Shown here piece by piece: positions 20,331 to 49,574 of a stretch of DNA of 64,000 bases. The position numbers and the translations under genes were made by a program. How positions within the stretch are numbered: position 1 is the first letter of the stretch; each line of letters begins with the position of its first letter. A model generated the notes under the pieces. The model was not told the DNA's origin and did not search any database. It saw nothing but the letters and a program-made list of their open reading frames with translations. The stretch covers positions 11,100,001-11,164,000 of the forward strand of contig NC_087251.1 of assembly GCF_037042905.1 (NCBI RefSeq), in the 5' to 3' direction. Origin of the DNA: Lytechinus pictus. Its lineage: Eukaryota.

Positions 20331-23300
20331 AATACCTCAATATCTACAAGTATTAAAATATAAGAATAAGAACTCATAATCGTTCACTGCCTATGTCGAA
20401 CATCGATTCGGCACCTCAAGGTCGAACATTAATTCGGCGCCAGCCCACTAGGTAAGAAATTAATTCCACGCCCCTAGATTGAACATCAATTCGGCTCCCC
20501 TAGGTCAAACTTCCATTCAGCACCCCCTATGTCGAACATCAACTCGCACCTCTAGGTCGAAGTGCTGCAACTCTATTGTCTATTCGAACCCCCCCTTCGG
20601 CGCCCCTATGTAAAACATCAATTCGGTGCCCCCCTAGGTTTCACGTCAATTTCGACTCCTCTAGGTTTAACACAATTATGCTTCCCATGGTGGAACATCT
20701 ATTTCGTACCCCCCCCTGTTGAACATCACATTGGCGCCCCTAAGTTTAACATCCATTCGTCACCCCCTTCTAGGTCGAGCATCAATTCGACACCCCCCAG
20801 GTTTAACATCAATTTGCGCCCCCTAGATTGAACATCAATTTGGCGCCCCTAGGTTGAACATCTATTTCGTACCCCCCCCCCTGTTGAACATCACATTGGC
20901 GCCCCTAAGTTTAACATCCATTCGTCACCCCCTTCTAGGTCGAGCATCAATTTGGCGCCCCCCCCCCCAGGTTGACCATCAATTCTACGCCCCAACGTCG
21001 AACGTCCATCCGGCACCCCCCTATGTAAACTCGGTGCCTCTACGTCGAACATGAATTCGGCGCCCCTAGGTCAAACATCCATTCGGGCTTCTTAGGTTGA
21101 TCATCAATTCGGCTCCCGAAGATCGAACCTTAATTCGGCGCCACTAGGTAAGACATGAATTCCACGCCCCTAGATTAAACATTAATTTGGCGCCCCACGT
21201 CGAGCATCAAACCGGCACCCTTAGGTAAAACGTAAATTCCAACCCCCCCCAAAAAAAAAAAAAATAAACATCAATTCGGCTCCTCTAGGTCGAACGTCCA
21301 TTCAGCACCACCCTATGTCGAATATCGAATCAGCGCCTCTACGTCGAACATGCATTCGGCGCCCCTAGGTCAAACATCTATTCGGTGCCCCCTCCTAGGT
21401 TTAGCGTCAATTTCGCCCCTCTAGCTTTAACATCAATTCGGCCCCCCTAGATTGAATATCAATTTGGCGCCCCTAGGTGGAACATTTATTTGACACCCCC
21501 CATGTTGAACATCACTTTGGCACCCCAGGTCCAACATCCATACGGCGCCCCCCCCCCCCCGGTTGACCATCAACAGCAACTGTACTGTCTATTCGACATC
21601 CCAACCCATTCAGCGCTCATAGGTTAAGCATCAATTCGGCACCCCCCTAGGTTTAACATCAATTTCGTCCCCTCTAGGTTTAACATCAATTCTACGCCCC
21701 CTATTCTTTATTGTCTATTCGACACCCCCCCCCCCATTTGGCGCCCCTAGGTCAAACATCAATTCGGTGCCCCCTCCTAGGTTTAGCATCGATTTCACCC
21801 CTCTAGGCTTAACATCAATTCGGCGCCCCCTAGATTGAACATCAACTCGGCGCCCTTAGGTCTAACATCAATTCAACACCCCCTCCCCCCTATGTTGAAC
21901 ATCACCTTGGCGCCTCTAGAATGGTCATTCATTCGGCACCGCCTTCTAGGTTAAGCATCAATTAGGCACCCCTAGAATGATCATCTATTCGACACCCCCT
22001 ACGTTTAACATCAATTTGCGCCCGCAGGTTAAACATCAATTTGGCGCCCCTAGGTCGAACATCAATTCAACATCCCCCCACGTTGAACATCAATTCGCCT
22101 CCCCCCCCAGTTGAAAATCACGATGGCGCCCTGAGGTCGAACATCCATTCGGCGCCATCCCCCTGAGGTTGACCATCAACTACAATTATATTGTCTATTC
22201 AACACCCCCCCCCCCCCCCCCATTCGGCGCCCATAGGTCATACATCAATTCGGTGCCCCCTCCTAGGTAAAGCATCGATTTCGCCTCTCTCTGTTTAACA
22301 TTAAATCGGCGGCCCTAGATTGAACATTAATTTTGTGCCCCTTGGTTCAACATCTATTTGGCACCCCCCCCTAAGTTGAACATCACCTTGGCACCCCTAG
22401 GTTGAACGTTCATTTGGCACCTCCCTATGTCGAACATCGACTCGACACCTCTACGTCGAACATGAATTCGGCACCCCTAGGTCAAACATCAATTCGGTGC
22501 GCCCTCCCCCCCCCCTAGGTTTAAAATCAATGTCGACCCCTCTCTAGATTTAACATCAATTCTGCGCCCCCTATTCTCTATTGTCTATTCGACACCCCCC
22601 CCCCCCCATTTGGGGCCCTTATTTCAACATCAATTTGTGCCCGCAGTTCGAGCATCAATTCGGCTCCCCTACGTCGAACAACAACTCGGCGCACCTAGGT
22701 CTAACATCAATTCAACACCCCCCTATGTTAAACATCACATTGGGGCCCCTAGAATGATCAATCATTCAGCACTCCCTTCTAGGTTGAGCATCAATTAGGC
22801 GCCCCCTAGATTGAACGTCAATCTGGAGCCCTAGGTGGAACATCTATTTGGCACCCCCAATGTTGAACATCACCATGGCACCCCTAGAATGTTCATCCAT
22901 TCGACATCCCCCGCCTAGGTTTAACATCAATTTGCACCCGAAGGTTGAAAATCAATTTGGCTCCCCTAGGTTGAGCATCAATTCGGCGCCCCTATGTCGA
23001 ACATCAACTCTGCGCCCCTAGGTCAAACATTAATTTAACATCCCCCACGTTGAACATCAATTCGCCCCCCCCCCCCCAAGTTGAACATCACCTTGGCGCC
23101 CCGAAGTCGAACATCCATTCGGCGCCATCCGCCTAAGGTTGACCATCAACTGCAATTCTATTGTCTATTCAACGGCCTCCCCTCCCATTCGGCGCCCCTA
23201 GGTCATACATTAATTCGGTGCCCCCTCCTAGGTTAAGCATCAATTTCTCCCCTCTATGTTTAACATTAAATTGGCACCCCCTAGATTGGACATACATTTT

Positions 23301-26300
23301 GCGCTCCTTGGTTCAACATCTATTTGGCACCCCCTATGTTGAACATCACCTTGGTGCCCCTGAAATGATCATCCATTCGGCACTCCCTTCTAGCTCGAGC
23401 ATCAATTCGGCGCCCCCTTGATTGAACATCAATTTGGCGCCCCTAGGTGGAACATTTATTAGGCACCCCCCATGTTGAACAACACCTTGGCACCCCTAGG
23501 TTGAACGTTCATTCGGCACCTCCCTATGTCAAACATCGACTCGGCGCCTCTACATCAAACATTAATTCGGCGCCCCTAGGTCAAACATCAATTCGGTGCG
23601 CCCTACCCCCTAGGTTTGATATCAATTTCGACCCCTCTCTAGGTTTAACACAAATTCTGCGCCCCGTATTCTCTATTGTCTATTCGAGACCCCCCCCCCC
23701 CATCTGGCGCCCCTATTTCAACATCAATTTGTGCCCGCAGTTCGAGCATCAATTCGGCGCCCCTACGTCGAACAACAACTCGGCGCCCCTTAGTATAACA
23801 TCAATTCAACAACCCCCCCCCCCCTATATTAAACATCACCTTGGTGCCCCTAGGTTGAACGTTCATTCGGCACATCCCTATGTCAAACATCTACTCGGCG
23901 CCTCTACGGCGAACATAAATTCCGCGCCCCTAGGTCGAACAACAACTCGGCGCCCCTAAGTATAACATCAATTCAACAACCCCCCCTATGTCAAACATCA
24001 CCTTGGCGCCCCTAGAATAATCATCCATTCGGCACCCCCTTCTAGGTTAAGCATCAATTAGGCGCCCCCTAGATTGAACATCAATCTAGCGCCCTAGGTG
24101 GAACATCTATTTGGCACCCCCCATGTTGAACAACACCTAGGCACCCCTAGGTTGAACGTTCATTCGGCACCTCCCTATGTCAAACATCGACTCGGCGCCT
24201 CTACGGCGAACATGAATTCGGCGCCCCTAGGTCGAACATCAACTCGGCGCCCCTTAGTATAACATCAATTCAACAACAACCCCTATGTTGAACATCACCT
24301 TGGCGCCCCTAGAATAATCATCCATTCGGCACCCCCTTCTAGGTTGAGCATCAATTAGGCGCCCCCTAGATTGAATATCAATCTGGCGCCCTAGGTGGAA
24401 CCTTTATTTGGCACCCCCCCCCCGTGTTGAACAACACCTTGGCGCCCCTAGAATGATCATCAATTCGACACCCCCCCCTCCTACGATTAACATCAATTTG
24501 CACCCGCAGGTTGAACATCAATTTGGCTCCCCTAGGTTGAGCATCAATTCGGCGCTCCTATGTTGAACATCAACTAGGCGCCCTTAGGTCGAACATCAAT
24601 TTAACATCACCCACGTTGAACATCAATTTGCCCCCCCCCCCCAGTTGAACATCACCTTGGCGCCCCAAAGTCGAACATCCATTCGGCGCCATCCGCCTGA
24701 GGTTGACCATCAACTGCAATTCTATTGTCTATTCAACGCCCCCCCCCCCATTCGGCGCCCCTAGGTCATACATCAATTCGGTGCCCCCTCCTAGGTTAAG
24801 CATCAATTTCGCCCCTCTATGTTTAACATTAAATTGGCACTCCCTAGATTGACCATGAATTATTTTGCGCTCCTTGGTTCAACATCTATTTGGCACCCCC
24901 CCCCCTTGTTGAACATCACCTTGGCGCCCCGAGAATGATCATCCATTCGGCATTCTCTTCTAGGTGGAGCATCAATTCGGCGCCCCCTAGATTGAACATT
25001 AAATTGGCGCCCCAAGGTGGAACATCTATTTGGCACCCCCATGTTGAATAACACCTAGGCACCCCAAGGTTGAACGTTCATTCGGCACCCCCCTATGTCG
25101 AATATCGACTCGGCGCCTCTATGGCGAACATGAATTCGGCGCCCCTAGGTCAAACATCAATTCGGTGCGCCCTCCTAGGTTTAATATTAATTTCGACCCC
25201 TCTCTAGGTTTAACATCAATTCTGCGCCCCCTATTCTCTATTGTCTATTCGACACCCCCCTCCCATTTGGCGCCCCTATTTCAACATCAATTTGTGCCCG
25301 CAGTTCGAGCATCAATTTGGCGCCCCTACGTCGAACAACAACTCGGCGCACCTAGGTCTAACATCAATTCAACACCCTCCCCCTATGTTCAACATCACCT
25401 TGGCGCCCCAAGAATGATCATTCATTCTGCACCCCCCCTTCTAGCTCGAGCATCAATTTGGCGCCCCTACGTCGAACAACAACTCGGCGCACCTAGGTCT
25501 AACATCAGTTCAACACCCTCCCCCTATGTTCAACATCACCTTGGGGCCCCTAGGTCGAACATCAATTTAACAGCACCCACGGTGAACATCAATTCGCCCC
25601 CCCCCCCCCCCAGTTGAACATCACCTTGGCGCCCCAAAGTCGAACATCCATTCGGCGCCATCCGCCTGAGGTTGACCATCAACTGCAATTCTATTGTCTA
25701 TTCAACGCCCCCCCCCCCATTCGGCGCCCCTAGGTCATACATCAATTCGGTGCCCCCTCCTAGGTTAAGCATCAATTTCGCCCCTCTATGTTTAACATTA
25801 AATTGGCACTCCCTAGATTGACCATGAATTTTGCGCTCCTTGGTTCTATATCTATTTGGCACCCCCCCCCCCTTGTTGAACATCACCTTGGCGCCCCGAG
25901 AATGATCATCCATTCGGCATTCCCTTCTAGCTCGAGCATCAATTCGGCGCCCCCTTGATTGAACATCAATCTGGCGCCCTAGGTGAAACATTTATTTGGC
26001 ACCCCCCATGTTGAACAACACCAAGGCACCCCTAGGTTGAACGTTCATTCGGCACCTCTCTATGTCAAACATCGACTCGGCGCCTCTACGGCGAACATCA
26101 ACTCGGCGCCCCTTAGTATAACATCAATTCAACAACAACCCCTATGTTGAACATCACCTTGGCGCCCCTAGAATAATCATCCATTCGGCGACCCCTTCTA
26201 GGTTGAGCATCAATTAGGCGCCCCCTAGATTGAATATCAATCTGGCGCCCTAGGTGGAACCTTTATTTGGAACCCCCCCCATGTTGAACAACACCTTGGC

Positions 26301-29300
26301 GCCCCTAGAATGATCATCAATTCGACACCCCCCTTTCCTACTATTAACATCAATTTGCACCCGCAGGTTGAACATCAATTTGGCTCCCCTAGGTTGAGCA
26401 TCAATTCGGCGCCCCTATGTTGAACATCAACTAGGCGCCCCTAGGTCGAACATCAATTTAACATCACCCACGTTGAACATCGATTCGCCCCCCCCCCCCC
26501 AGTTGAACATCATCTTGGCGCCCCAAAGTCGATCATCCATTCGGCGCCATCCGCCTGAGGTTGACCATCAACTGCAATTCTATTGTCTATTCAACGCCCC
26601 CCCCCCCCATTCGGCGCCCCTAGGTCATACATCAATTCGGTGCCCCCTCCTAGGTTAAGCGTCAATTTCGCCCCTCTATGTTTAACATTAAATTGGCACC
26701 CCCTAGATTGAACATAAATTTTCGCTCCTTGGTTCAACATCTATTTGGCACCCCCATGTTGAATAACACCTAGGCACCCCAAGGTTAAACGTTCATTCGG
26801 CACATCCCTATGTCGCACATAGACTCGACGCCTCTACGGCGAACATGAATTCGGCGCCCCTAGGTCGAACAACAACTCGGCGCCCCTTAGTATAACATCA
26901 ATTCAACAACCCCCCTATGTCAAATATCACCTTGGCGCCCCTAGAATAATCATCCATTCGGCACCCCCTTCTAGGTTAAGCATCAGTTCGGCGCCCCCTA
27001 GATTGAACATCAATCTGGCGCCCTAGGTGGAACATCTATTTGGCACCCCCCATGTTGAACAACACCTAGGCACCCCTAGGTTGAACTTTCATTCATCACC
27101 TCCCTATGTCAAACATCGACTCGGCGCCTCTACGGCGAACATGAATTCGGCGCCCCTAGGTCGAACAACAACTCGGCGCCCCTTAGTATAACATCAATTC
27201 AACAACAACCCCTATGTTGAACATCACCTTGGCGCCCCTAGAATAATCATCCATTTGGCACCCCCTTCTAGGTTGAGCATCAATTAGGCGCCCCCTAGAT
27301 TGAATATCAATCTGGCGCCCTAGGTGGAACCTTTAGTTGGCACCCCACCCATGTTGAACAACACCTTGGTGCCCCTAGAATGATCATCCATTCGACACCC
27401 CCCCTACGTTTAACATCAATTTGCACCCGCAGGTTCAAAATCAATTTGGCACCCCTAGGTTGAGCATCAATTCGGCGCCCCTATGTCGAACATTAATTTA
27501 ACATCCCCCATGTTGAACATCAATTCGCCCCCTCCCCAGTTGAACATCACCTTGGCGCCCCGAAGTCGAACATCCATTCGGCGCCATCCGCCTGAGGTTG
27601 ACCATCAACTGCAATTCTATTGTCTATTCAACGCCCCCCCCCCCCCCATTCGGCGCCCCTAAGTTATACATAAATTCTTTACCCCTCCTAGGTTAAGCAT
27701 CAATTTCTCCCCTCTATGTTTAACAAAAAATTGGCACCCCCTAGATTGAACATAAATTTTGCGCTCCTTGGTTCAACATCTATTTGGCACCCCCCCTATG
27801 TTGAACATCACCTTGGTGCCCCTAAAATGATCATCCATTTGGCACTCCCTTCTAGCTCGAGCATCAATTCGGTGCCCCCTTGATTGAACATAAATTTGGC
27901 GCCCCTAGGTGGAACATCTATTTGGCACCCCCCATGTTGAACAACACCTAGGCACCCCAAGGTTGAACGTTCATTCGGCACCTCCCTATGTCGAATATCG
28001 ACTCGGCGCCTCTACGGCGAACATGAATTCGGCGCCCCTAGGTCGAACAACAACTCGGTGCGCCCTCCTAGGTTTAATATTAATTTCGACCCCTCTCTAG
28101 GTTTAACATCAATTCTGCGCCCCCTATTCTCTATTGTCTATTCGACACCCCCCTCCCATTTGGGGCCCCTATTTCAACATCAATTTGTGCCCGCAGTTCG
28201 AGCATCAATTTGGCGCCCCTACGTCGAACAACAACTCGGCGCACCTAGGTCTAACATCAATTCAACACCCCCCCCCTATGTTCAACATCACCTTGGCGCC
28301 CAAAGAATGATCATTCATTCGGCACCCCCCTTCTAGCTCGAGCATCAATTTGGCGCCCCTACGTCGTACAACAACTTGGCGCACCTAGGTCTAACATCAA
28401 TTCAACACCCTCCCCTATGTTCAACATCACCTTGGGGCCCCTAGAATGATCATTCATTCGGCACTCCCTTCTAGGTTGAGCATCAATTAGGCGCCCCCTA
28501 GATTGAACATCAATCTGGAGTCCTAGGTGGAACATCTATTTGGCAACCCCAATGTTGAACATCACCATGGCACCCCTAGAATGTTTTTCCATTCGACACC
28601 CCCAGCCTAGGTTTAACATCAATTTGCACCCGCAGGTTGAACATCAATTTGGCTCCCCTAGGTTGAGCATCAATTCGGCGCCCCTATGTCGAACATCAAT
28701 TTGTGCCCGCAGTTCGAGCATCAGTTTGGCGCCCCTACGTCGAACAATAACTCGGCGCACCTAGGTCTAACATCAATTCAACACCCCCCCCCCTCTATGT
28801 CCAACATCACCTTGGCGCCCCAAGAATGATCATTCATTCGGCACCCCCCTTCTAGCTCGAGCATCAATTTGCCGCCCCTACGTCGAACAACAACTTGGCG
28901 CACCTAGGTCTAACATCAATTCAACACCCTCCCCCTATGTTCAACATCACCTTGGGGCCCCTAGAATGATCATTCATTCGGCACTCCCTTCTAGGTTGAG
29001 CATCAATTAGGCGCCCCCTAGATTGAACATCAATCTGGAGCCCTAGGTGGAACATCTATTTGGCACCCCCAATGTTGAACATCACCATGGCACTCCTAGA
29101 ATGTTTATCCATTCGACACCCCCAGCCTAGGTTTAACATCAATTTGCACCCGCAGGTTGAACATCAATTTGGCTCCCCTAGGTTGAGCATCAATTCGGCG
29201 CCCCTATGTCGAACATCAACTCGGCGCCCCTAGGTCGAACATTAATTTAACATCCCCCACGTTGAACATCAATTCGCCCCCCCCCCCCAGTTGAACATCA

Positions 29301-31394
29301 CCTTGGCGCCCCAAAGTCGAACATCCATTCGGCGCCATCCGCCTGAGATTGACCATCAACTGCAATTCTATTGTCTATTCAAAGCCCCCCCTCACCCATT
29401 CGGCGCCCCTAGGTCATACATTAATTCGATGCCCCCTCCTAGGTTAAGCATCAATTTCGCCCCTCTATGTTTAACATTAAATTGGCACCCCCTAGATTGA
29501 ACATGAATTTTGCGCTCCTTGGTTCAACATCTATTTGGCACCCCCCCCCCCTTGTTGAACATTACCTTGGCGCCCCGAGAATGATCATCCATTCGGCATT
29601 CCCTTCTAGGTCGAGCATCAATTCGGCGCCCCCTAGATTGAACATTAATTTGGCGCCCCAAGGTGGAACATCTATTTGGCACCCCCCATGTTGAATAACA
29701 CCTAGGCACCCCAAGGTTGAACGTTCATTCGGCACCCCCCTATGTCGAATATCGACTCGGCGCCTCTATGGCGAACATGAATTCGGCGCCCCTAGGTCAA
29801 ACATCAATTCGGTGCGCTCTCCTAGGTTTAACATCAATTCTGCGCCCCCTATTCTCTATTGTCTATTCGACACCCCCCTCCCATTTGGCGCCCCTATTTC
29901 AACATCAATTTGTGCCCGCAGTTCGAGCATCAATTTGGCGCCCCTACGTCGAACAAAAACTCGGCGCACCTAGGTCTAACATCAATTCAACACCCTCCCC
30001 CTATGTTCAACATCACCTTGGGGCCCCTAGAATGATCATTCATTCGGCACTCCCTTCTAGGTTGAGCATCAATTAGGCGCCCCCTAGATTGAACATCAAT
30101 CTGGAGCCCTAGGTGGAACATCTATTTGGCACCCCCAATGTTGAACATCACCATGGCACTCCTAGAATGTTTATCCATTCGACACCCCCCGCCTAGGTTT
30201 AACATCAATTTGCACCCGCAGGTTGAACATCAATTTGGCTCCCCTAGGTTGAGCATCAATTCGGCGCCCCTATGTCGAACATCAACTCGGCGCCCCTAGG
30301 TCGAACATTAATTTAACATCCCCCACGTTGAACATCAATTCGCTCCCCCCCCCCCCCAGTTGAACATCACCTTGGCGCCCCAAAGTCGAACATCCATTCG
30401 GCGCCATCCGCCTGAGATTGACCATCAACTGCAATTCTATTGTCTATTCAAAGCCCCCCCCTCACCCATTCGGCGCCCCTAGGTCATACATTAATTCGAT
30501 GCCCCCTCCTAGGTTAAGCATCAATTTCGCCCCTCTATGTTTAACATTAAATTGGCACCCCCTAGATTGAACATGAATTTTGCGCTCCTTGGTTCAACAT
30601 CTATTTGGCACCCCCCCCCCCCCCTTGTTGAACATTACCTTGGCGCCCCGAGAATGATCATCCATTCGGCATTCCCTTCTAGGTTGAGCATCAATTCGGC
30701 GCCCCCTAGATTGAACATTAATTTGGCGCCCCAAGGTGGAACATCTATTTGGCACCCCCCATGTTGAATAACACCTAGGCACCCCAAGGTTGAACGTTCA
30801 TTCGGCACCCCCCTATGTCGAATATCGACTCGGCGCCTCTATGGCGAACATGAATTCGGCGCCCCTAGGTCAAACATCAATTCTGCGCCCCCTATTCTCT
30901 ATTGTCTATTCGACACCCCCCTCCCATTTGGCGCCCCTATTTCAACATCAATTTGTGCCCGCAGTTCGAGCATCAATTTGGCGCCCCTACGTCGAACAAA
31001 AACTCGGCGCACCTAGGTCTAACATCAATTCAACACCCTCCCCCTATGTTCAACATCACCTTGGGGCCCCTAGAATGTTTTTCCATTCAACACCCCCCGC
31101 CTAGGTTTAATATTAATTTGCACCCGCAGGTTGAACATCAATTTGGCTCCCCTAGGTTGAGCATCAATTCGGCGCCCCTATGTCGAACATTAATTTAACA
31201 TCCCCCACGTTGAACATCAATTCGCTCCCCCCCCCCCCAGTTGAACATCACCTTGGCGCCCCAAAGTCGAACATCCATTCGGCGCCATCCGCCTGAGGTT
31301 GACCATCAACTGCAATTCTATTGTCTATTCAACGGCCCCCCCCCCCATTCGGCGCCCTAGTTAATACATCTATTTGTGCCCCCTCCTAGGTTAA

Positions 31395-31789
31395 AGAGAA
31401 ATTCCAGTAGTTGCAGTAAACACTGATTTCATGAGAAAGTCTGTAAAACCAGGCTTAATTGTCAGTATATCATCGAGGATCTAGATCTGGTACAGTTACA
31501 TAAACTGAACTTTGTGAAATCTTGAAATCTACGCTGAATAATGTTCAGACTGAACTTCCCCAACACAGATAAGCGCACGTGGGACAGTGTATAATTATTG
31601 CTTTGGGCGTCGGGCCCGACGCTCTACCCGAATCCTGTGCTTATTTGCTGATTTATCAGCAATTACACAATTTCTTCCAGAATCCTTTGGCACATGCGTT
31701 TTATTTATACAAACAGACACTTTGGTGGTCATTTCATTGGATTCTGTACGAACTCATTTTGATATCGTTACCAAAACTAGCATTTACCT
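31395..31789. mobile_element. Kolobok-type non-autonomous element (395 bp) inserted in the satellite
   Basis: The empty site cctaggTTAAgcatcaatttcgcc is seen in sister units. Here TTAA is duplicated (31391-31394, 31790-31793) around agagaaattccagt ... actagcatttacct (imperfect TIR). Confidence 0.88.
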
Positions 31790-34700: not shown

Positions 34701-35926
34701 CCCCTCTATGTTTAAGATTAAATCGGCGCCCCCTAGATTGAATATAAATTTTGCGCCCCTTGGTTCAACATATATTTGGCACCCCCCATGTTGAACATCA
34801 CCTTGGTGCCCCTAGAATGATTATCCATTCGGCACTTCCTTCTAGATCGAGCATCAATTCGGCGCCCCTAGGTCTAACATCCATTCGGCACCCCCCTAGG
34901 TTTAATATTAATTTGCGCCTGCAGGTTGAACATCGATTTGACGCCCTTAGGTCGAGCATCAGTTCGGCGCCTCAATGTCGAACATCAACTAGGCGCCCCT
35001 AGGTCGAACATCAATTCAACACCCCCCTCCCCCCATTTTGAACATCACCTTGGTGCCCCTACAATGATCATCCATTCGGCACCCCCTCCTAGGTCGAGTA
35101 TCAATTCGGCGCCCCTTAGATTGAACATCAATTTGGCGCCCCTAGGTGGAACATCTATTTGGCACCCCTCCCCCAATGTTGAATATTACCTAGGCGCCTC
35201 TAGGTCAAACATCAATTCGGTGCGCCCTCCCCCTAGGTTTAATTTCAATTTCGACCCCTCTCTAGGTTTAACATCAACTCTGTGCCCCATATTCTCTATT
35301 GTCTATTCGACACCCCCAATTTGACGCCCCTATTTCAACATCAATTTGTGCCCGCAGTTCGAGCATCAATTTGGCGCCCTTACGTCGAACAACAACTCGG
35401 CGTCCCTAGGTCTAACATAAATTCAACACCCCCCCCCCTATGTTGACCATCACCTTGGCGCCCCTAGAATGATCATTCATTCGGCATCCCCTTCTAGCTC
35501 GAGCATCAGTTCGGCGCCCCCTAGATTGAACATCAATTTGGCGCCCCAAGGTGGAACATCTATTTGGCACCCCCCATGTTGAACAACACCTAAGCACCCC
35601 TAGGTTGAACGTTCATTCGGCACCTCCCTATGTCAAACATCGACTCGGCGCCTCTACGTCGAACATGAATTCGGCGCCCCTAGGTCAAACATCTATTCGG
35701 TGCGCCCTCCCCCTAGGTTTTATATCAATTTCGACCCCTCCCTAGGTTTAACACCAATTCTGCGCCCCCTATTCTCTATTGTCTATTTGACACCCCCCCC
35801 CCATTTGGTGCCCCTAATTCAACATCAATTTGTGCCTGTAGTCCGAGCATCAATTTGGCGCCCCTACGTCGAACAACAACTCGGCGCCCCTAGGTCTAAC
35901 ATCAATTTAACACCCCCCCCTATGTT

Positions 35927-36471
35927 TATTTATTTATTTTTTATTTTTATTTATTTCAAATCTTTATCCAGAGTAGCCTGTTCAGCTTTATACAAACAAA
36001 TATGTAAAATTACACAATATATACAATTAAAACGTTCATTAAAAATCGCTGGTCTTCCACAGGGCTCTGCATTAATACCAAAACATATAATTCATAACAT
36101 AAAGAAAACATAAGTAAAGAAGACATATATACACATCAAAATAAGATTCAGAATGAGAAAGTAAAAGGACATGGTAAGACAGGGAGAAAGAGATAGAGAG
36201 AGAGAGAGAGAGAGAAAAAAAGGTGGCAGAGGCAAACAGAGAGAGAGGCAGAGAAGTGGAGAGAGAGGCAGAGAAGTGGAGAGAGAGGGAAGAAAAATGT
36301 GAGAGAGGGAGAGAGCGAAAGGGAGTTCAGGAGCAAATAAAATTATGTAATATTTGACCAGTCAAGCATATTCTTATGAACAGCATAAGATAGCATAGGA
36401 AAAAAAAACCAAATTGAGGAAGTGATCATGCATTTCTAATAAAACATAATACATGTATCATGGGCTGTAAG
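35927..36471 (-). mobile_element. 5'-truncated CR1/L2-group LINE 3' end
   Basis: The minus strand ends cagagccctgtggaagaccagc...gctgaacaggctactctggataaag...(aaat)n. Flanked by a duplicated tatgtt (35921-35926, 36472-36477). Confidence 0.75.
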
Positions 36472-36856: not shown

Positions 36857-37193
36857 TTTTTAAATTTTAAATTTCATTATTGCCTTTTAATTTGAAATCA
36901 ACTTTTCTATGTCTATCTAATTTATTTTATCTATATATATTGCTTTGTATGTAATTTGTTAATTAGTATCATGTTTTTAAGGATACCGTATACTTGCTAC
37001 TCTGTTTTCTGTTATGATATGAGTTAAGTTATTTAGAATATTTCTGTGTATATTTCATATGTATTTAAATGTTTTTATACTTGTCATATATTCCATATTT
37101 ATCATGTATTCCAGGGCCCCACGGGAGACCAGTTTATTGCTGAGTGGGCTACCCTGGTTAAATATATTGAAATAAATAAATAAATATATAAAC
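36857..37193 (+). mobile_element. 5'-truncated CR1/L2-group LINE 3' end
   Basis: AT-rich UTR, then cagggccccacgggagaccag...gctgagtgggctaccctggttaaata and an (aaat)n tail. Flanked by a duplicated aacatc (36851-36856, 37194-37199). Confidence 0.78.
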
Positions 37194-38868: not shown

Positions 38869-41800
38869 ACATTACGTCAATTTCTGACTCCAATGATTAT
38901 GATGTATGTATAAATAAACTCAAGAAATACAATGGTCTCAAACTAGCTCACTTAAATGCCTGTAGTATGTATGGGAAACTAGATGAACTGCGATTTCTCT
39001 TGCAGAAAATTGATCTTGATGTATTATGCATTTCTGAGACTTGGCTATCTGAAACTATAAGTGACAATCTGGTATCAATAGATGGATATGCACTTTTCCG
39101 TAGGGATAGAACAGATGGTCGCCGTGGTGGTGGTGTTTGTATATATGTTAAAAACACATTATCATGTACTCAACGCGATGATCTTAAAAGTTCTGAAATA
39201 GAGGCGATATGGATAGACTTAAAAATATCCTTGTCTGATAATCTGTTAATATGTTGTCTATATAGACCACCTGACTCTAATACTGATTACTTTAACAATA
39301 TGTTGGATGTGTTTGAAAAGGCAACCGATGATCCATCTGATTTAGTAATCATGGGTGATTTTAATATAGATTATAAAGCTGATGAATCACTCCATGAAAA
39401 TCACATAAATCTCTTAGAAAATTTACTTCTTTTAACACAAATGATACGTAAACCTAATAGAGTAACCTTGACTTCTTCAACCTGTATAGACCACATATTA
39501 AGCTCAATTCCTCAGAAACACGTTATATGTGACGTAGCAGAAATTTCTATGAGCGACCATTATATGATATATACATGCATTGATTTCTCCACCGAAAAGA
39601 AACAACACAAATGTCGTCGTTTTCGTGACTATAAATCATTCGATGTAAATAGGTTCATTGCCTCTGTGGAAAATGCTGAAATATTCAAAGGAAACAATAA
39701 CGGTCCAGTTGAAGAAACATGGAACACCTGGAAGGAATCTTTTCTGACAATATGTAATGAACACGCACCTATCAAAACAGCAAGAGTAAAAGATAGAATA
39801 TGCCCTTGGATGACCCCTGACATTATAAAACTCATCTACACTAGAGATTTTCTCAAAAGAAAGTCAGTGGCTTCTGATGAATATGCAATACGCACTGAAT
39901 ATTATGAAAAATATAAGAAGGCAAAAAACTATATTACTTGTCTTATCCGAAAGCGGAAACAAGAATATTTCCATGATGGACACAAGAAACATAAAAATAA
40001 TTCTAAGAAGTTATGGTCAGAACTGAATAAGATTCATGGGGTGTCGAAATCTGTGGACCCTAGTTGTAATATTGAATGTAATGAAATGAATGATTTTTTT
40101 ATTAATACTGGTAAGAATATCTCTAAATAATTTTGCAAAGAAAAATTAAAGTGGAATCATCCACCATGTATCTATGAATTCAATTTTCAACCAATTGACT
40201 GTTCAAAGATTCTACGGCATTTGGACAATTTGGACTCAAATAGTAACTTAGATATCCTTGACTTTGATACAAAATTATTGAAATTAGCTGCCCCTTTTAT
40301 TGCCCAATCCTTATGTGACATATTTAACACTAGTTTAGATACGGGAATTGTACCTGCTGACTGGAAAATTGCACGTACGACACCAATTTTCAAAGGTAAG
40401 GGTTCAAAAGACGAAAAATCTAATTACCGACCAATCTCAGTCGTTAGTCACATCCCCAAAATCATAGAAAAGGAAATACAATCTCAACTACTATCCTACC
40501 TTCAAAAGCATGACATGATTAATGTTGATCAATACGCATTTCTTCCGAACCATTCAACAATAACGTGCCTACATCGTGTCTTAGATGATTTCTATGATGC
40601 ATTAAATATGAAAGAAATGTGTGCTGCATGCTTTCTAGACATCTCAAAATGTTTTGATTGTGTAGATCATGGACTTCTTCTATTCAAACTCGAAAAATAT
40701 GGAATTATCAATAATATGCTCACTTGGTTCAAAAACTACTTAAATGATAGAAAGCAAGCTGTATTTTCCAAAGGTAAATTATCTAATATTAAAAGCTTTC
40801 AATTGGAGTACCGCAGGGCAGTGTTCTGGCCCCCATCCTGTTCTTAATTTTTATTAATGATATATCTGAATGTATTACTGAAGGTACTTGCAGCATATTT
40901 GCTGATGATGTAGTAGTATTTGCCTCTGACAGTAAGTTGGAAGATGTAACAAAGAAATTACAGAAAAATGTAGACGCCTTAAATGACTGGTATAACCGAA
41001 ACCGATTACGCATTAATACAAGCAAAACCAAAACAATACTAATTAAATTAAGATCGTCTGATACATTGAATATATTCATTAATGATGATCTGATTGAACA
41101 GGTAAAGTCTATAAGATATTTAGGCATTGTGATAGATGAAAACCTGAAATGGAATGTATATTTAAGAGAATTATGTAAATCGATTGCCTATAAGATCTAC
41201 TCTTTAGGCAAGTTGAGTAAATTCCTGAGTTCACATGTACTAAATATCCTGTATAAATGCATAATTCAGCCCTGTATAGACTATGCAATCTCTGTTTGGG
41301 GCAACTGTCCAGCAGCCTACAAACTGCCCCTAAACAGATTGCAAAAAAGAGCTGCCAGATATGTATCTGGAATCAAATTGCGAGCGGGAATGCATTGATA
41401 AATCAAGTCTCCTGGCAAACTATTGACCAACGTCGAGATTATTTTCTGGCAATTCTCATGTACAAGTGTATAAGGGGCGTTGCCCCTCCCCGCTTATCAA
41501 ATGAAATTGAAATGTACTTCGATCGCCATGGCATGAACACTAGGAATGCAAATTCACTGAATGTAGTATTACCCAAACCTAACATATCCTTATTTAAACA
41601 ATCCTTCAAATATGCCGGAGCAGTAACTTGGAACAAACTCCCGGAAGACATCCAGAATGCCATTTCTGTTGAAAGTTTCAAACATCATTACAAGAAACTT
41701 CGCTCAAATCTATAACAATTATTCAACTGTTCTACTTTGGTCCATATATATCTGTAGTATTGATACTATTAGCATGATTGCCAAATAATACACATCTACT

Positions 41801-42165
41801 TATTATCGATTATTATGATTTCCTATGATTATTAATATTGTTACGATTCTTTAAATTGAGACCCATTCCTGTCACTATCGATATATAAAACGTACCTCTT
41901 TCCTTTTTCTTCACTTCTTTATCTTACTATGAGATAAATATTGCTAATTGTTCTTTTTTTTCTGATGTTTCATTTTTTAGCATTATTTGTATTCTAATCT
42001 TTGCTGTTTATAATTACATGTATTCCTAATTATTTGTAATCTTTCCTTTTAATATGTGTATATTTTCTTTATGCAGGACCATTATGTGAAACAGCCTGCG
42101 AGCTGATTAATGTTTTATCCTGTTGAAAGATGTTTTAATAAAATAAATAAAATAAATAATAATAA
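38869..42165 (+). mobile_element. CR1/L2-group non-LTR retrotransposon (APE endonuclease + reverse transcriptase ORF2), 5'-truncated and inactivated
   Basis: APE motifs HLNACS, ISETWL, GGGVCIY, LYRPP, MGDFN, CIDH, SDH. RT motifs YRPISV, FLDISKCFDCVDH, GVPQGSVLAPILF, FADD, YLGIVID. Lesions: in-frame stop at 40128-40130 and frameshifts near 40795 and 41370. (aaat/aat)n tail. Imperfect TSD tattcga/tatccga. Confidence 0.95.
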
Positions 42166-44973
42166 TATCCGACACCCACCTTCGGCGCCCCTAGGTTAGA
42201 AATCAATTCAGTGTCCCCTCCCCCCAGGTTTAATTTTGCGCCCCTAGGTCAAACATCTATTCGGTGCTCCCCCTTCTATGTTAAACATCCATTTCGCCCC
42301 CTCTAGGTTTAAAATTAATTTGGCGCCCCCTAGATTGAACATCGATTTGGCGCCCCTAGGTGTAAGAACTATTTGGCATCCCCCCTGTGTTTAACATCAC
42401 CTTGGTGCCCCTAAAATGATCATTCGGCACCCCCTTCTAGGTCGAGCATCGATTCGGCGCCCCCTAGATTGAACATCAATTTGGCGCCCCTAGGTCGAAA
42501 CATCTATTTGGCACCCCCCCCCCTATGTTTAAATACACCTTCGCGCCAGTAGGTCGAACATCCATTCGGCACCCCCCCCCCTGTGGCGAAAATCGACTCG
42601 TCGCCTCTACGTCGAGCATGAATTCGGCGCCCCTATGTCAAATATCCATTCGGCTCCCCCTACATTTAACATCAATTATACTTCAATTGGTTGAACCTTC
42701 GATTTGACACCCTCTAGTTTTAATATCAATTAGTGCCCGCAGTTCGAGCATCAATTCGGCGCCCCTAGGTTCAAAATCAAATCAACATACCCCCCTATGT
42801 TGAACATCACCTTGGCACCTAGATCAAACATCAATTTTGCGCCCTAGTTGGAACATCTATTTGGCACCACCCCCATGTTGAACATCACCTTGGCGCCCCT
42901 AGAATGATCATCCATTCGACACCCCCCCCCCCGGTTTAACATCAATTTGAGCCCGCAGCTTGAACATCAATTTGGCGCCCCTAAGTCGAGCATAAATTTG
43001 GCGCCCCTAGGTCGAACATCAATTTAACACCCCCTCCCCCACGTTGAACATAAATCCAGTGCCCCCTCCCCCCAATGTTGAACATCACCTGGCGCCCCTA
43101 GGCCAAACATTCATTCGGCGCTCCCTCCTCCTAGGTTTAACATCCATTTCGCCCCTCTAGGTTTAAAATTAATTCGCCGCCCCCTAGATTGAACATCAAT
43201 TCGGCGCCCCCATCTAGGTCGAACATCAATTCGCCCCCCCCCCAGGTTGACCATCAATTCGAATGTCCATTCGGCACCCCCTATTTCAAACATGAACTCG
43301 GCGCCTTTACGTCGAACATGAATTCGGCGCCCCTAGGTCAAATATCCATTCGGCTCACCCCCCCCCCCCCTACTTTTAACATCAAATATATTTCCCTTGG
43401 TTGCACATCCGTTTGACACCCCCTAGGTTAAAAATCAATTTGTGCCCGCAGTTCGAGCATCAATTCGGTGCCCCTACGTCGAACAACAACTAGGCGCCCC
43501 TTAGTATAACATCAATTCAACACCCCCCCCCCCCTATGTTGAACATCACCTTGGCACCCCTAGAATGATCATCCATTCAGCACCCCCTTCTAGGTTGAGC
43601 ATCAATTAGGCGCCCCCTAGATTGAACATCAATTTTTCGCCCTAGGTCGAACGTCCATTCGGCACCCCTTGTGGCGAACACCGACTCGGCACCTCTACGT
43701 CGAGCATGAATTCGGCGCCCCTAGGTCAAATATCCATTCGGCTCCCCCCTACATTTAACATCAATTATATTTCAATTGGTTGAACCTTCGATTTGACACC
43801 CTCGAGGTTTAACATCAATTTGTGCCCGCAGTTCGAGCATCAATTCGGGCCCTAGGTCCAAAATCAAATCAACACCCCCCCCCTATGTTGAACATCACCT
43901 TGGCACCTAGATCGAACATCAATTTTGCGCCCTAGTTGGAACATCTATTTGGCACCACCCCCATGTTGAACATCACCTTGGCGCCTCTAGAATGATCATC
44001 CATTCGACACCCCCCCCCCCCCAGGTTTAACATCAATTTGAACCCGCAGCTTGAACATCAATTTGGCGCCCGTAAGTCGAGCATCAATTCGGCACCCCTA
44101 TGTCGAACATAAACTCGGCGCCCCTAGGTCGAACATCAATTTAAAACCCCCTCCCCCACGTTGAACATCAATCCAGGACCCCCTCCCCCCTATGTTGAAC
44201 ATCACCTGGCGCCCCTAGGCCAAACATTCATTCGGCGCTCCCTCCTCCTAGGTTTAACATCCATTTCGCCCCTGTAGGTTTAAAATTAGTTCGCGCCCCC
44301 TAGATTGAACATCAATTCGCCCCCCCAGGTTGACCATCAATTCTATGTCCCAAGGTCGAATGTCCATTCGGCACCCCCCCCCCTATTTCGAACATCAACT
44401 CGGCGCCTTTGCGTCGAACATGAATTCGGCGCCCCTAGGTCAAATATCCATTCGGCTCACCCCCCTACTTTTAACATCAATTATATTTCCCTTGGTTGAA
44501 CATCCATTTGACACCCCCTAGGTTAAACATCAATTTGTGCCCACAGTTCGAGCATCAATTCGGCGCCCCTAGGTCGAACAACAACTAGGCGCCCATAGGT
44601 CTAACATTAAGTCAACACCCCCGCCTCTTTGATGAACATCACCTTGGCGCCCCTAGAATGATCATCCATTCAGCACCCCATTCTAGATTGAGCATCAATT
44701 AGGCGCCCCCTAGAATGAACATCAATTTTGCGCCCTAGGTGGAACATCTATTTTGCGCCCCCCATGTTGAACATCACCTAGGCGTCCTCAGGTCGAACAT
44801 CCACTACGCCATTCGGCACCCCCTTCTAAGTCGAGCATTAATTCGGCGCCCCTAGGTCGAACATCCATTCGGCACCCCCTAGGTTTAACATTAATTTGCG
44901 CCCGCAGGTTGAACATCAATTTGACGCCCTTAGGTCGAGCATGAATTCAGCGCCTCCATTTCGAACATCAACT

Positions 44974-45153
44974 TAGTCTAGATTCTAGACGTCGGTGTAC
45001 TTGTTATTTCTCTCACCTTGCTTTATTCTCCTCTGCGCGCCATCTCCAGTGATCGCGCTATCCCCTCTTTCACGCCCTTTTCATTTCGGGCGTAGAGGTC
45101 GAGGATTGTGTTATTGATCAACTGAAAAACAGAACAGTCCTGGCAAAGGACTA
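44974..45153. mobile_element. AcademH-like non-autonomous element (180 bp) with terminal hairpins
   Basis: TAGTC...GACTA ends. Each end is its own hairpin (gtctaga-t-tctagac; agtcct-ggcaa-aggact). Exact 9-bp TSD acatcaact at 44965-44973 and 45154-45162. Confidence 0.75.
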
Positions 45154-45895
45154 ACATCAACTAGGCGCCCCTAGGTCGAACATCAATTCAACACCCACCC
45201 CCTCCCCCCATGTTGAACATCACCTTGGCGCCCCTACAATGATCATCCATTCGGCACCCCCTCCTAGGTCGAGCATCGATTCGACGCCCCTTAGATTGAA
45301 CATCAATTTGGCGCTCTATTTGGCACCCCTTCCCCCAATGTTGAATATTACCTAGGCACCCCTAGGTCGAGCGTCCATTCGGCACCCCCCTATGTCGAAC
45401 ATCGACTCGGCGCCTCTTCGTCGAACATGAATTCGGCGCCCTTAGGTCAATCATCCATTCGGCTCCCCACCACCTAGATTGAACATCAATTTCGCCCTCC
45501 CCCCCCCCCCATGTTGAACTTCAATTCGGCGCCCCCCCCCCAGGTTGACCATCAATTCTATGTCCCAAGGTCGAATGTCCATTTGGCACCCCCTATGTCA
45601 AACATCAACTCGGCACTTCCTAGGTTGATCATTAGGTCGAATATTATTTCGGCACCCCCTATATCGAACATCAGTTTTGCGCCACTAATTCAACCTCCCC
45701 CCTCCCACGTTGAACGTCAATTCGATGTCAACTATGTCCATCACCAATTCGAACCCCTCCCCTAGATTGAACATCAATTATCGGCACCCCTGCGTCAAAC
45801 ATCAATTCGGTGCCCTCCCCCTAGTTTTAACATCAATTTCGACTCCTCTAGGTTTGACATCAATTCGGCGCCCCTAGATTGAACATCAGTTTGGC

Positions 45896-46111
45896 TGAAA
45901 GATGCTACTGCACCCTCTGCTTGCTTATCTGCAGTCTGCTGAACATTTGCTTCCATAGCCCTATGCAGTGCACACACACAATAGCTATCAAACACTGAGG
46001 GGTTGCCTACTCTAGCAGTTAGGTTTGGTCTATTCATAAACAAATTGAGGAGTTACTCAACCAAACAGGCTCTTCCACTGGCTAGTAAAGGGGAGTTTGA
46101 ATAAGCTTCTG
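45896..46111. other. Unidentified ~215 bp non-satellite insert
   Basis: The satellite periodicity is lost abruptly. No TIR, TSD or tail is recognisable. Confidence 0.6.
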
Positions 46112-49100
46112 ACACCCCCCACGTTGAATGCCACCTATGTCTAACACCAATTCGCCCCCCCCCCCTAGATTGACCATCAATAATGTTTCCCATGGTTGAA
46201 CATCCATTCGACACCCCCTAGGTTTAACATCAATTTGCGCCCGCAGGTTGATCATCAATTTGGCGCCCCTAGGTTGATCATCAATATGGCGCCCCTAGGT
46301 TGATCATCAATTTGGCGCCCCTATTTCGAACATCAATTCAACACCCCCCACGTTGAACATCAATTCGGCGCCCCCCCCCCCCAGTTGAAAATCAATTGGA
46401 CGCCCCCAAGTTCAAACATCAATACGGTATCCCCCCATAGGTTTTACATCAATTTCGCCCCCCAGGTCGAGCATCAATTCGGCGCCCCTACGTCGAACAT
46501 GAATTCGGCGCCCCTAGGTCAAACATCCACTCGGCGCTTCCTAGGTTGATCATCAATTCGGCACCCCATGGTCGAATATTAATACGGCACCACTAGGTAA
46601 AATATTACCTTCGCGCCCCCTAGATTGAACATCAATTTGGGGCCCCTAAGTCGAACATCCATTCGGCACCCCCTATATCGAACATCAGTTTTGCGCCCCC
46701 ACGTCGAACACTAATTCAACCCCCCCCCACGTTGAACATCAATTATCGGCACCCCCGGGTCAAACATCAATTCGGTGCCCTCCCCCCTAGTTTTAACATC
46801 AATTTCGACTCCTCTAGGTTTGACATCAATTCGGCGCCCCCTAGATTGAACATCAATTTGGCACCCCCCCCCCCCATGTTGAACATCACCTTGGAGCCCC
46901 TAGGTTGATCATCCATTCAGCACCACTATCTAGGTCGAACATCAATTCAGCCCCCCCAGGTTTACCATAAATTCTATGTCCCAAGGTCGAATGTCCATTT
47001 GGCACCACCCCCCCCCCCCCATTATGTCTAATATCAACTCGGCACTTCCGAGGTTGATCATCAGGTCGAATATTAATTCGGCGCCACTAAGTAAAACATT
47101 AATTCCGCGCCCCCTAAATTGAACATCAATTTGGGGCCCCTAGGTCAAACATCCATTCGGCATCCCCTATATCGAACATCACTTTTGCGCCCTAGGTCGA
47201 ACACCAATTCAACCCCCCCCCCCCACGTTGAACGTCAATTAGACGCCACCTATGTCTAACACCAATTCGGCTCCCCCTCCCTAGATTGACCATCAATTAT
47301 GTTTCCCATGGTTGAACATCCATTCGTTCGACACCCCCTGGGCTTATCATCAATTTGCGCCCGCAGGTAAAACGTCAATTCACCCCCCCCCCCCGATTTA
47401 ACATCAATCCGGCTCCCCTAGGTCGATCGTCCATTCAGCACCCACTATGTCGAACATCAATTCGGCGCCTCTATGTCGAAGTGCTGCAACTCTATTGTCT
47501 ATGAGACACCCCCCCCCCATTCGGCACCCCTAGGTCAAACATCAATTCGGTGCCCCCTAGATCGAACATCAATTTGGCACCCCAAGGTTGAACATCTATT
47601 TGGCACCCCCCCCCCCCCCATGTTGGACATCACCTTGGCAACCCTAGAATGATCATCCATTCGGCACCCCCTTCTAGGTCGAGCATCAATTTGGCGCCCC
47701 CTAGATTGAACATCAATTTGGCGCCCCTAGGTGGAACATCTACTTGGCACCCCCCCCCCCTATGTTGAACATCACCTTGGCGCCCCTAGGCCAAACATCC
47801 ATTCGGCGCCCCCCTCCCCCCCCCCGGTAGATCATTAACTGCAACTCTATTGTTTACTGGACACCCCCCCCCATTCGGCGCCCCTAGGTCAAACATCGAC
47901 TCGGCGCCTCTACGTCAAACGTGAATTCAGCCCTCCTAGGTCAAATATCCATTCGCCCCCCCTAGATTGAACATCAATTTGGCGCCTCTAGGTTGAACAT
48001 CTATTTGGCACCCCCCCCCCCTATGTTGATCATCACCTTGGCACCCCTAGATTGAACATCAATTTGGCGCCCTTAGGTGGAACATCTATTTGGCACCCCA
48101 CCCCCATGTTGAACATCAATTTTGCGCCCCTAGGTTGAACCTCTATTTATCACCCCCCCCCCATGTTGAACATCACCTTGGCGCCCATAGGCCAAACATC
48201 TATTCGGTGCCCCCCCCCCTTTAGACCATCAACTGCAACCCTATTGTTTATTCGACACCCCCCCCCCCCATTCGGCGTCCCTAGGTCAAACATCGACTCG
48301 GCGCCTCTACGTCAAACGTGAATTCAGCCCTCCTAGGTCAAATATCCATTCGCCCCCCCTAGATTGAACATCAATTTGGCGCCTCTAGGTTGAACATCTA
48401 TTTGGCAACCCCCCCCCCCTATGTTGATCATCACCTTGGCACCCCTAGATTGAACATCAATTTGGCGCCCTTAGGTGGAACATCTATTTGGCACCCCACC
48501 CCCATGTTGAACATCAATTTGGCGCCCCTAGGTGGAACATCTACTTGGCACCCCCCCCCCCCCTATGTTGAACATCACCTTGGCGCCCCTAGGCCAAACA
48601 TCCATTCGGCGCCCCCCTCCCCCCCCGGTAGATCATTAACTGCAACTCTATTGTTTACTGGACACCCCCCCCCCCATTCGGCGCCCCTAGGTCAAACATC
48701 GACTCGGCGCCTCTACGTCAAACGTGAATTCAGCCCTCCTAGGTCAAATATCCATTCGCCCCCCTAGATTGAACATCAATTTGGCGCCTCTAGGTTGAAC
48801 ATCTATTTGGCACCCCCCCCCTATGTTGATCATCACCTTGGCACCCCTAGATTGAACATCAATTTGGCGCCCTTAGGTGGAACATCTATTTGGCACCCCA
48901 CCCCCATGTTGAACATCAATTTTGCGCCCCTAGGTTGAACCTCTATTTATCACCCCCCCCCATGTTGAACATCACCTTGGCGCCCATAGGCCAAACATCT
49001 ATTCGGTGCCCCCCCCCCCTTTAGACCATCAACTGCAACCCTATTGTTTATTCGACACCCCCCCCCCCCCATTCGGCGTCCCTAGGTCAAACATCAATTC

Positions 49101-49574
49101 GGTGCTCCCCCTCCTAGGTTTAACATCCATTTCGCCCCCACTAGGTTTAAAATTAATTCGGCGCCACCTTGATTGAACATCAATTTGGCGCCCCTAGGTT
49201 GAAAACATCTATTTGGCACCCCCCCCCCCTCTGGTGAACATCATCTTGGTGCCCCTAGAGTGATCATCCACTCGGCACCCCCTTCTAGGTCGAGCCTCGA
49301 TTCGGCGCCCCCTAGATTGAACATCAATTTGGCGCCCCTAGGTGGAACATCTACCCCCCCGGTTGAACATCACCTTTGCGCCCCTAGATAGAACGTACAT
49401 TCGGCACCCCCCTATGGCGAACATCGACTCGGCGCCTCTACGTCGAACATGAATTCAGCCCTCCTAGGTCAAATATCCATTCGCCCCCCCTAGATTGAAC
49501 ATCAATTATATTTCCCTTGGTTGAACATCCATTTGACACCCCCCCTCCAGGTTTTACATCAATTTGTGCCCGCA

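What the first reader, a model, noticed from the sequence alone, without database searches (positions are those of the whole stretch)
20390..49574. 29 kb hierarchical satellite: a ~26-30 bp monomer alphabet written in a fixed ~1.07 kb order
Seen: every monomer follows one template (TAGGTYRA-ACATC-x-TTYGGCRCCCC). There are dozens of recognisable variants (e.g. ...catcaccttggcgcc, ...gaatgatcatccattcggc, ...gaccatcaactgcaattctattgtctattc). They recur in a conserved order with a period of ~1070-1080 bp (29351 to 30420; 32767 to 33847), and whole blocks are skipped or repeated in other copies (periods ~880-970 bp, or ~1.55 and ~1.75 kb). Inference: this is a higher-order repeat of roughly 40 very short monomers, analogous to alpha-satellite HORs but with a minisatellite-sized unit. 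I do not recognise it as a described family. It sits between ordinary genes and could be a structural locus (heterochromatin, boundary or centromere-like) or simply a runaway expansion.
Basis: partly seen in the sequence, partly recalled or inferred. Interest (0 to 1): 0.75.

Follow-up and report, generated by a model that had tools for sequence, protein, structure and literature searches.

The report
Overgrown transposon repeat with local order
This 29-kb array is the largest of at least 62 arrays of a 26-base repeat that sits inside a gene-less jumping-DNA element scattered over the genome, and its 40-unit order, found at no other copy tested, likely arose on the spot by ordinary block duplication rather than for a centromere-like job.

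Summary
The array is real: 916 monomers of about 26 bp, with a 40-monomer (about 1.07 kb) period far above chance (300 of 367 neighbour pairs in order, against 2.5% shuffled). The order is not fixed over 29 kb. It holds in a young core (about 22-36 kb), breaks into 110 runs, and five single-copy insertions interrupt it. The monomer is not a stand-alone satellite. It is the internal repeat of a non-autonomous TIR transposon with a 5-bp target duplication (10 exact and 21 near-exact of 30 end pairs). The element's left end lies 1.1 kb upstream (19263); its right end is missing here. At least 62 arrays occur on 20 contigs (median about 32 monomers, five others of 230-420). Fifteen of 24 tested have their own higher-order period, and none shares this order. 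Simulated neutral duplication gave lag peaks of similar height. The 5-bp duplication points to hAT5, but no transposase partner was found. Satellite growth inside gene-less transposons is published (Tetris, miDNA4, DTC84). This scan noted it before for other families in this genome, not for this one. New member of a known kind; useful as replicated births of higher-order repeats.

The parts
19263..19520 (+). Left end of the non-autonomous TIR element: terminal repeat (first two letters differ from the family's) and subterminal motifs holding GGCGCCCC
   Evidence: 19265-19515 matches the left end in 58 fetched loci at 70-89%; 42 exact copies of the family's 17-base terminus in the genome
19499..20260 (+). 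Degenerate about 110-bp repeats, the element's first internal repeat block
   Evidence: motif at 19499, 19721, 19913, 20024, 20194; matches in 67 loci; same block precedes the array in complete copies
20390..49574 (+). Expanded 26-bp monomer array (916 monomers, 24,650 bp of monomers)
20390..22000 (+). Old, diverged left edge of the array, without clear 40-mer order
   Evidence: mean distance to the reference mostly 4-9 edits per monomer; nearest block 4-5 edits per monomer
22000..35926 (+). Core with the 40-monomer order and its skip/repeat variants; youngest at 28.2-34.5 kb
   Evidence: 0.6-2.7% substitutions between young copies, 6-13.5% for copies at 22-27 kb against the reference
32759..33839 (+). 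One complete 40-monomer unit (1081 bp), used as reference; monomers 8-11 and 26-29 are related (offset 18), so the unit holds an older internal duplication
31395..31789 (.). 395-bp dispersed element inserted into a monomer, TTAA duplicated (Kolobok- or piggyBac-like label is recalled, not tested)
   Evidence: relatives in 5 fetched loci, up to 85%
35927..36471 (-). Insertion with a LINE-type TAAA tail and a GA-rich stretch, TATGTT duplicated; same 3' motif as the next insertion
36857..37193 (+). LINE-type 3' end with TAAA tail, AACATC duplicated
   Evidence: closest relatives 94-95%
38869..42166 (+). Broken non-LTR retrotransposon (endonuclease and reverse transcriptase, in three frames pieces)
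   Evidence: PF03372, PF14529, PF00078; 3' end 97-98% to closest relatives
45900..46110 (.). About 200-bp non-monomer insertion, not characterised
42167..49574 (+). Older right part of the array; fragments of the 40-mer order, one recent 800-bp duplication at 48.0-49.5 kb; ends without the element's CT-rich tract and right TIR
18262..18600 (-). Neighbouring CUB-domain exon (host gene)
   Evidence: PF00431, E 4.9e-11
52313..54380 (-). Neighbouring C-type lectin gene (signal-peptide exon near 54.1-54.4 kb, lectin exon 52313-52648)
   Evidence: PF00059, E 3.2e-9

Best explanation
The array is the internal 26-bp tandem repeat of a gene-less TIR transposon family with 5-bp target duplications, here grown to 916 monomers, likely by neutral in-register duplication and deletion of blocks after the element landed. 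Steps: (1, shown) complete family members read left TIR - about 110-bp repeats - 26-bp array - CT-rich tract - right TIR and are flanked by 5-bp duplications; (2, shown) this array follows the family's left end and 110-bp block in the same orientation; (3, inferred) monomers first diverged to about 10 edits apart, partly by CpG-type transitions; (4, inferred) unequal exchange between similar monomers then copied long blocks, and a 40-monomer block became the commonest unit in the core, so the 'alphabet in order' is a record of copying, not a code; (5, shown) other copies of the family have other periods; (6, shown) later single-copy insertions interrupt it and the right end is absent, so this copy is likely immobile. 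No host function is needed.
For:: of 30 left-right end pairs, 5-bp flank duplications are exact in 10 and within one mismatch in 21 (shuffled pairing 0.09 and 1.5; other lengths 2-9 give 0-1 exact); window 19265-19515 matches the left end in 58 loci; a 14.4-kb copy on contig C14 keeps both ends around 438 monomers; 62 arrays, sizes a continuum from 6 to 672 (median 32.5, by that count); 15 of 24 other arrays have a top lag above the maximum of 100 shuffles (lags 8-56), and the window's order holds in 3 of 106 comparable neighbour pairs; 19 other arrays share at most 3 ordered monomers with 120 core monomers, whereas 8 copies of one subfamily share runs of 6-19 with each other, so order is inherited by copying; 21 distinct jumps join monomers closer than random (6.0 against 8.27 edits, 0 of 20000 draws); young core, old edges; 8 neutral simulations give top-lag fractions 0.08-0.23, against 0.15 observed.
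Against: The window has no right TIR or target duplication (none in the window, 10 kb upstream or 20 kb downstream), so its origin rests on the left end alone. No transposase with these ends was found. 9 of 30 end pairs lack the duplication (some are mis-paired by the script), and the C14 copy's flanks agree at only 3 of 5 bases. The jump test is biased toward similarity by the path-finding method. The simulation's parameters were my choice and do not reproduce the 0.35 peak of the core or explain why 40. Size and monomer divergence correlate only weakly (rho 0.24, p 0.06). No reads were laid on the array.
Confidence: 0.85

Rival explanations
1. The array has been co-opted as a structural locus (centromere, heterochromatin block or boundary), and the order is kept by selection.
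For: It is the largest of 62 arrays seen and has a young homogeneous core with old edges, a layout recalled from alpha satellite. CpG-type transitions are about four times other C/G transitions (0.25 against 0.06), which fits methylation.
Against: Order private to one locus; 110 runs; insertions tolerated inside the core; only 29 kb with exons 0.7 kb and 2.7 kb away; an exact consensus dimer occurs only 9 times in the assembly, so no large homogeneous block of this monomer is assembled. Core-and-edge layout also follows from neutral local copying.
Confidence: 0.06
2. The element moved here already carrying a multi-kilobase array (array as cargo), and the monomer is a multiplied transposase-binding site that favours long arrays.
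For: The monomer's 3' half (ATTT/CGGCGCCCC) resembles the subterminal motif at both ends. Eight subfamily copies on different contigs share ordered runs and kilobases of flanking element. The C14 copy keeps both ends at 14.4 kb. A similar idea was proposed for Tetris TIR-220 (PMC4079207, passages).
Against: Most complete copies are 1-6 kb with under 70 monomers; no two large arrays share an order; binding was not tested. This can only explain the seed, not the young core.
Confidence: 0.2
3. The long array, or its periodic core, is an assembly expansion.
For: No reads spanning the array were examined.
Against: No exact repeat of 300 bp or more; copies differ by 0.6-13.5% substitutions; insertions occur once each with clean target duplications; other large arrays exist with other orders.
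Confidence: 0.03

Closest known systems
Tetris foldback transposon and its TIR-220 satellite, Drosophila virilis (PMC4079207; passages read)
   Same: Tandem repeats inside a non-autonomous TIR element expand into long arrays still attached to element ends; no transposase partner found; unequal crossing-over invoked.
   Different: There 220-bp monomers lie in both long TIRs and the expanded arrays are homogeneous (about 94%, up to 66 copies). Here the TIRs are about 17 bp, the array is internal and one-sided, monomers are 26 bp and about 10 edits apart, and they form higher-order blocks.
miDNA4 (Xenopus tropicalis) and Xmix/Xstir (X. laevis) MITE-borne satellites (seen only through the review PMC9659126; passages)
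   Same: Satellite monomer born inside a MITE and then amplified in tandem.
   Different: Listed as Tc1/mariner or unassigned; rapid homogenisation is described rather than a private higher order; 5-bp duplications not reported in the passages seen.
DTC84 tandem-repeat MITE of Donax trunculus (PMC3879986; abstract only) and oyster Helentron-borne arrays (PMC7492417; search listing only)
   Same: Element as a cassette for internal repeats next to a simple-sequence tract; ordered variants with fixed positions, as in the subfamily.
   Different: Up to five core repeats, AA target duplication, Pearl/Helentron-like ends; here hundreds of monomers, true terminal TIRs and 5-bp duplications.
hAT5 group of hAT transposons (defined by Kapitonov and Jurka 2007, not seen; cited in PMC12730594, passages)
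   Same: 5-bp target-site duplication; short TIR starting CA(G/T).
   Different: No transposase could be tied to these ends, so membership is open.
Primate alpha-satellite higher-order repeats (recalled, no call)
   Same: Diverged monomers in a repeated order, structural variants by whole-monomer deletion, young core and old flanks.
   Different: 26 bp against 171 bp; about 14 kb and a handful of full units against megabases; no centromere evidence; order private to one transposon copy.

Membership tests
Non-autonomous TIR (class II) transposon | Terminal inverted repeats at both ends | tested here: met
   Family copies: (imperfect about 17-bp TIRs). The window copy has the left one only.
Non-autonomous TIR (class II) transposon | Target-site duplication of fixed length | tested here: met
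   5 bp, 10 exact and 21 within one mismatch of 30; controls 0.09 and 1.5. Not assessable for the window copy.
Non-autonomous TIR (class II) transposon | Dispersed copies with shared ends and unrelated flanks, no transposase | tested here: met
   long ORFs near ends are LINE, LTR-type or host genes.
hAT5 | 5-bp target-site duplication | tested here: met
   definition from PMC12730594.
hAT5 | hAT transposase in an element with the same ends | tested here: inconclusive
   18 of 18 DUF4371 loci and 40 loci from 62 hAT-dimerisation hits carried no such ends; 74 of 78 ORFs near orphan left ends had no transposase family (4 dropped as tandem duplicates). The partner may be extinct or missed.
hAT5 | Match to a described Repbase/Dfam family | not testable with these tools
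   No repeat library is held.
Canonical hAT (8-bp TSD) | 8-bp target-site duplication | tested here: not met
   0 of 30 exact or within one mismatch.
Foldback (Tetris/TU-like) element | Long inverted arms, repeats on both strands | tested here: not met
   no inverted copy; 0 monomers on the minus strand.
Higher-order repeat array | Block copies far more alike than monomers within a block | tested here: met
   Monomers within the unit differ by 9.9 edits on average; young unit copies differ by 0.6-2.7%.
Higher-order repeat array | Many uninterrupted tandem copies of one unit | tested here: not met
   Only 2 runs of 40 monomers or more among 110.
Centromeric satellite | CENP-A occupancy / location at the primary constriction | not testable with these tools
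   No ChIP or FISH data.
Centromeric satellite | Large homogeneous arrays in the genome | tested here: inconclusive
   9 exact consensus dimers in the assembly; largest arrays seen 12-29 kb; unassembled arrays cannot be excluded.
Structured RNA family | Rfam match | tested here: not met
   0 matches at gathering score in the window.

The most novel reading that the evidence does not exclude
A hAT5-like family whose 26-bp unit is a multiplied transposase-binding site carries ordered arrays to new sites as cargo, and each large copy then builds its own alpha-satellite-like higher-order repeat from scratch. The genome would hold a dozen or more independent births of higher-order structure from one known seed with known boundaries, away from centromeres, which makes the question of whether such structure needs selection directly testable.
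Probability: 0.3. Interest if true: 0.55.

Novelty: new member of a known kind. Interest (0 to 1): 0.33.

Why it matters
It turns an apparently coded, centromere-like array into a readable case of satellite birth: the carrier element, its ends, the small ancestral arrays and the overgrown copies are all in one genome. Because paralogous copies reached different periods (8 to 56 monomers, 40 here), the family offers natural replicates for how higher-order repeats arise without a known function. It is also an apparently uncatalogued transposon family with the rare 5-bp target duplication. The general route from transposon to satellite is already published, which caps the surprise.

Tried and rejected
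Retrotransposon targeting of the array: suspected, rejected because only 1 of 29 other copies of each of two LINE-type families lies in such an array. Autonomous partner: none in 58 hAT-domain loci or near orphan left ends. Right end of the window's element: none within the window, 10 kb upstream or 20 kb downstream. Shared order with other loci: rejected. Age-size relation: inconclusive. Self-BLAST as a dot plot returned too few pairs to use; monomer decomposition replaced it. Whether the array lies in an intron or between genes: unresolved; no RNA holder was listed, three RNA runs read at about 6% gave no depth on the unique CUB exon bins, and a search for longer relatives of the CUB exon found none (weak). 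No read evidence was obtained for the lectin side or the array itself. My note that the large C14 array lacks a right end was wrong; searches show both ends. CpG observed/expected in the array (0.85) is no lower than in the flanks (0.78, 0.85), so the CpG-decay point is only relative to the consensus and the monomers are not independent. Papers: seven searches listed no description of this family; the supplements of PMC9587614 hold 0 matches to the terminus. Repbase, Dfam, most subscription journals and bioRxiv supplements were not searchable and may describe it.
Full report
What is there. The window is G000:C7:11100001-11164000 of an 812-Mb animal assembly; earlier scan notes call the organism a sea urchin, which I did not test. 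From 20390 to 49574 runs a GC-rich, strand-skewed array. Wrap-around decomposition gives 916 monomers in 24,650 bp, 331 of them 26 bp long. No monomer match lies outside the array or on the other strand. The template is loose: 4 exact matches, 606 of 916 within four errors.

The order is real but local. Lag 40 is the strongest period: 0.35 of monomer pairs in 28.2-35.9 kb and 0.15 overall, against 0.012-0.02 background (908 monomers of 15 bp or more). Against one reference unit (32759-33839), 300 of 367 well-assigned neighbours follow the reference order; 500 shuffles give 0.025, at most 0.053. But the best path breaks into 110 runs. Only two reach 40 monomers, one of them containing the reference; 316 of 908 monomers lie in runs of 20 or more. 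Young copies differ by 0.6-2.7% substitutions, those at 22-27 kb and 37 kb by 6-13.5% from the reference, and both edges are old. No exact repeat reaches 300 bp, which argues against an assembly expansion. The unit holds an older internal duplication at offset 18. The 21 distinct jumps in 22-38.9 kb join monomers that are more alike than random (6.0 against 8.27 edits, 0 of 20000 draws), and several recur, so variant units were themselves copied; the path method favours such jumps, so this is support, not proof.

Five insertions interrupt the array, each once: a 395-bp element with TTAA duplicated, two LINE-type 3' ends with 6-bp duplications, a 3.3-kb broken non-LTR retrotransposon with endonuclease and reverse transcriptase domains, and about 200 bp near 45.9 kb. 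Closest relatives are 97-98% and 94-95% identical for two of them. They do not target the array: 1 of 29 other copies each lies in one.

What the monomer is. One unit finds 109 matches over many contigs, about 65-70% identical over their length outside the window. At these loci the array sits inside one element: a left terminus of about 17 bp with a GGCGCCCC-bearing subterminal motif, about 110-bp repeats, the 26-bp array, a CT-rich tract and an imperfect inverted copy of the terminus. Among 30 left-right pairs found in the fetched loci, a 5-bp flanking duplication is exact in 10 and within one mismatch in 21; shuffled pairings give 0.09 and 1.5, and lengths 2-4 and 6-9 give at most 1 exact. 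The other 9 include pairs that the script joined wrongly. The left 17-mer has 42 exact copies. In the window, 19265-19515 matches the left end in 58 loci at 70-89%, the 110-bp block follows, then the array, all in family orientation. The right end is absent from the window, 10 kb upstream and 20 kb downstream, so the window copy has no testable duplication.

The family gives the controls. I measured 62 arrays on 20 contigs, a biased lower bound; the median is 32.5 monomers and the window's is the largest (672 by that stricter count), followed by 418, 396, 368, 301 and 232. A 14.4-kb copy on C14 keeps both ends around 438 monomers, with flanks agreeing at 3 of 5 bases. Of 24 arrays tested, 15 have a top lag above the best of 100 shuffles, at 8 to 56 monomers; in small arrays one block duplication is enough for this. 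The window's order holds in 3 of 106 comparable pairs, and 19 arrays share at most 3 ordered monomers with 120 core monomers. Eight copies of one subfamily do share ordered runs of 6-19 monomers and kilobases of element: order travels with copying. Eight neutral simulations of block duplication and deletion with point mutation gave top-lag fractions of 0.08-0.23, like the whole-array 0.15 but below the core's 0.35; the parameters were my choice.

Mechanism. Shown: transposon anatomy and duplication in the family, left end at this locus, private order, age gradient, later insertions. Inferred: the element landed with a short array; monomers diverged (CpG-type transitions 0.25 against 0.06 at other C/G sites, 725 aligned monomers; not independent, and CpG is not depleted overall); in-register unequal exchange copied long blocks; a 40-monomer block came to dominate the core; loss of the right end left the copy immobile. 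Confidence 0.85. A role as cargo with transposase-binding monomers (0.2) is compatible for the seed only. A centromere-like role (0.06) has no positive evidence: a CUB exon lies 0.7 kb from the element and a C-type lectin gene 2.7 kb from the array, and a consensus dimer occurs exactly only 9 times in the assembly. Whether the array is intronic stayed open.

Classification. Five-base duplications define hAT5 according to PMC12730594 (passages; original report not seen). No transposase with these ends turned up in 18 DUF4371 loci, 40 loci from 62 hAT-dimerisation hits, or 74 of 78 ORFs near orphan ends, so 'hAT5-like' is a lead, not a filing. Satellite growth from arrays inside transposons is established: Tetris (PMC4079207, passages), miDNA4 and Xstir (via PMC9659126, passages), DTC84 with ordered variants (PMC3879986, abstract), and a general statement in PMC10048060 (passages). 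Seven paper searches and the supplements of PMC9587614 showed no description of this family; Repbase and Dfam could not be searched. Earlier notes of this scan report the same phenomenon for other families in this genome and nothing for this sequence. Rfam gave no match.

Verdict. Observation partly confirmed, interpretation partly supported. New member of a known kind, interest 0.33. Its value lies in many paralogous arrays that each built their own higher order from one seed.

Noticed in passing
G000 C14 (L039+L133), C1 (L102+L139), C3 (L136+L045+L046), C15 (L041+L042), C7 (L135+L026): Five other large arrays of the same monomer, 230-420 monomers each; in C15 and C7 blocks that include the 110-bp repeats or the right end were duplicated along with the monomers.
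   Followed up: partly
L047, L054-L060, L149, L155: A long subfamily (6 kb or more shared, expanded CT-rich tract) whose copies on different contigs keep the same monomer order; its ends were not mapped.
   Followed up: partly
L181, L183, L184, L187, L198, L176: Elements around hAT-dimerisation hits with 6-bp target duplications (hAT6-like); L183 and L184 are near-identical in length with an 823-aa open frame.
   Followed up: no
L079, L080, L172, L185, L193: hAT-domain elements with 8-bp duplications and intact-looking termini.
   Followed up: no
window 59960-61470: A 1.5-kb foldback with arms of about 630 bp at 98-99% and a 259-bp spacer: a young element.
   Followed up: no
window 7472-8290: An older inverted-repeat element, arms about 200 bp at 90-95%.
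   Followed up: no
window 16995-17640: A dispersed 163-bp-repeat element with strong one-strand RNA depth (about 900x) in three runs; reads are mostly 90-99% alike and run on into other sequence, so they come from other copies.
   Followed up: no
L124: The family's left-end region repeated in tandem with a period of about 3 kb.
   Followed up: no
window 13378-14253 (+): A 291-aa open frame with coiled-coil character and no Pfam family at threshold; almost no RNA depth in three runs.
   Followed up: no
L219, L251: Two of 58 other LINE-type copies lie inside arrays of this monomer, more than the arrays' apparent share of the genome would give; too few to call.
   Followed up: partly
window 20390-49574 (-): The G-rich strand has 23 non-overlapping four-G-run motifs with loops up to 12 and 164 with loops up to 25; no control was run, and they could aid slippage.
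   Followed up: no
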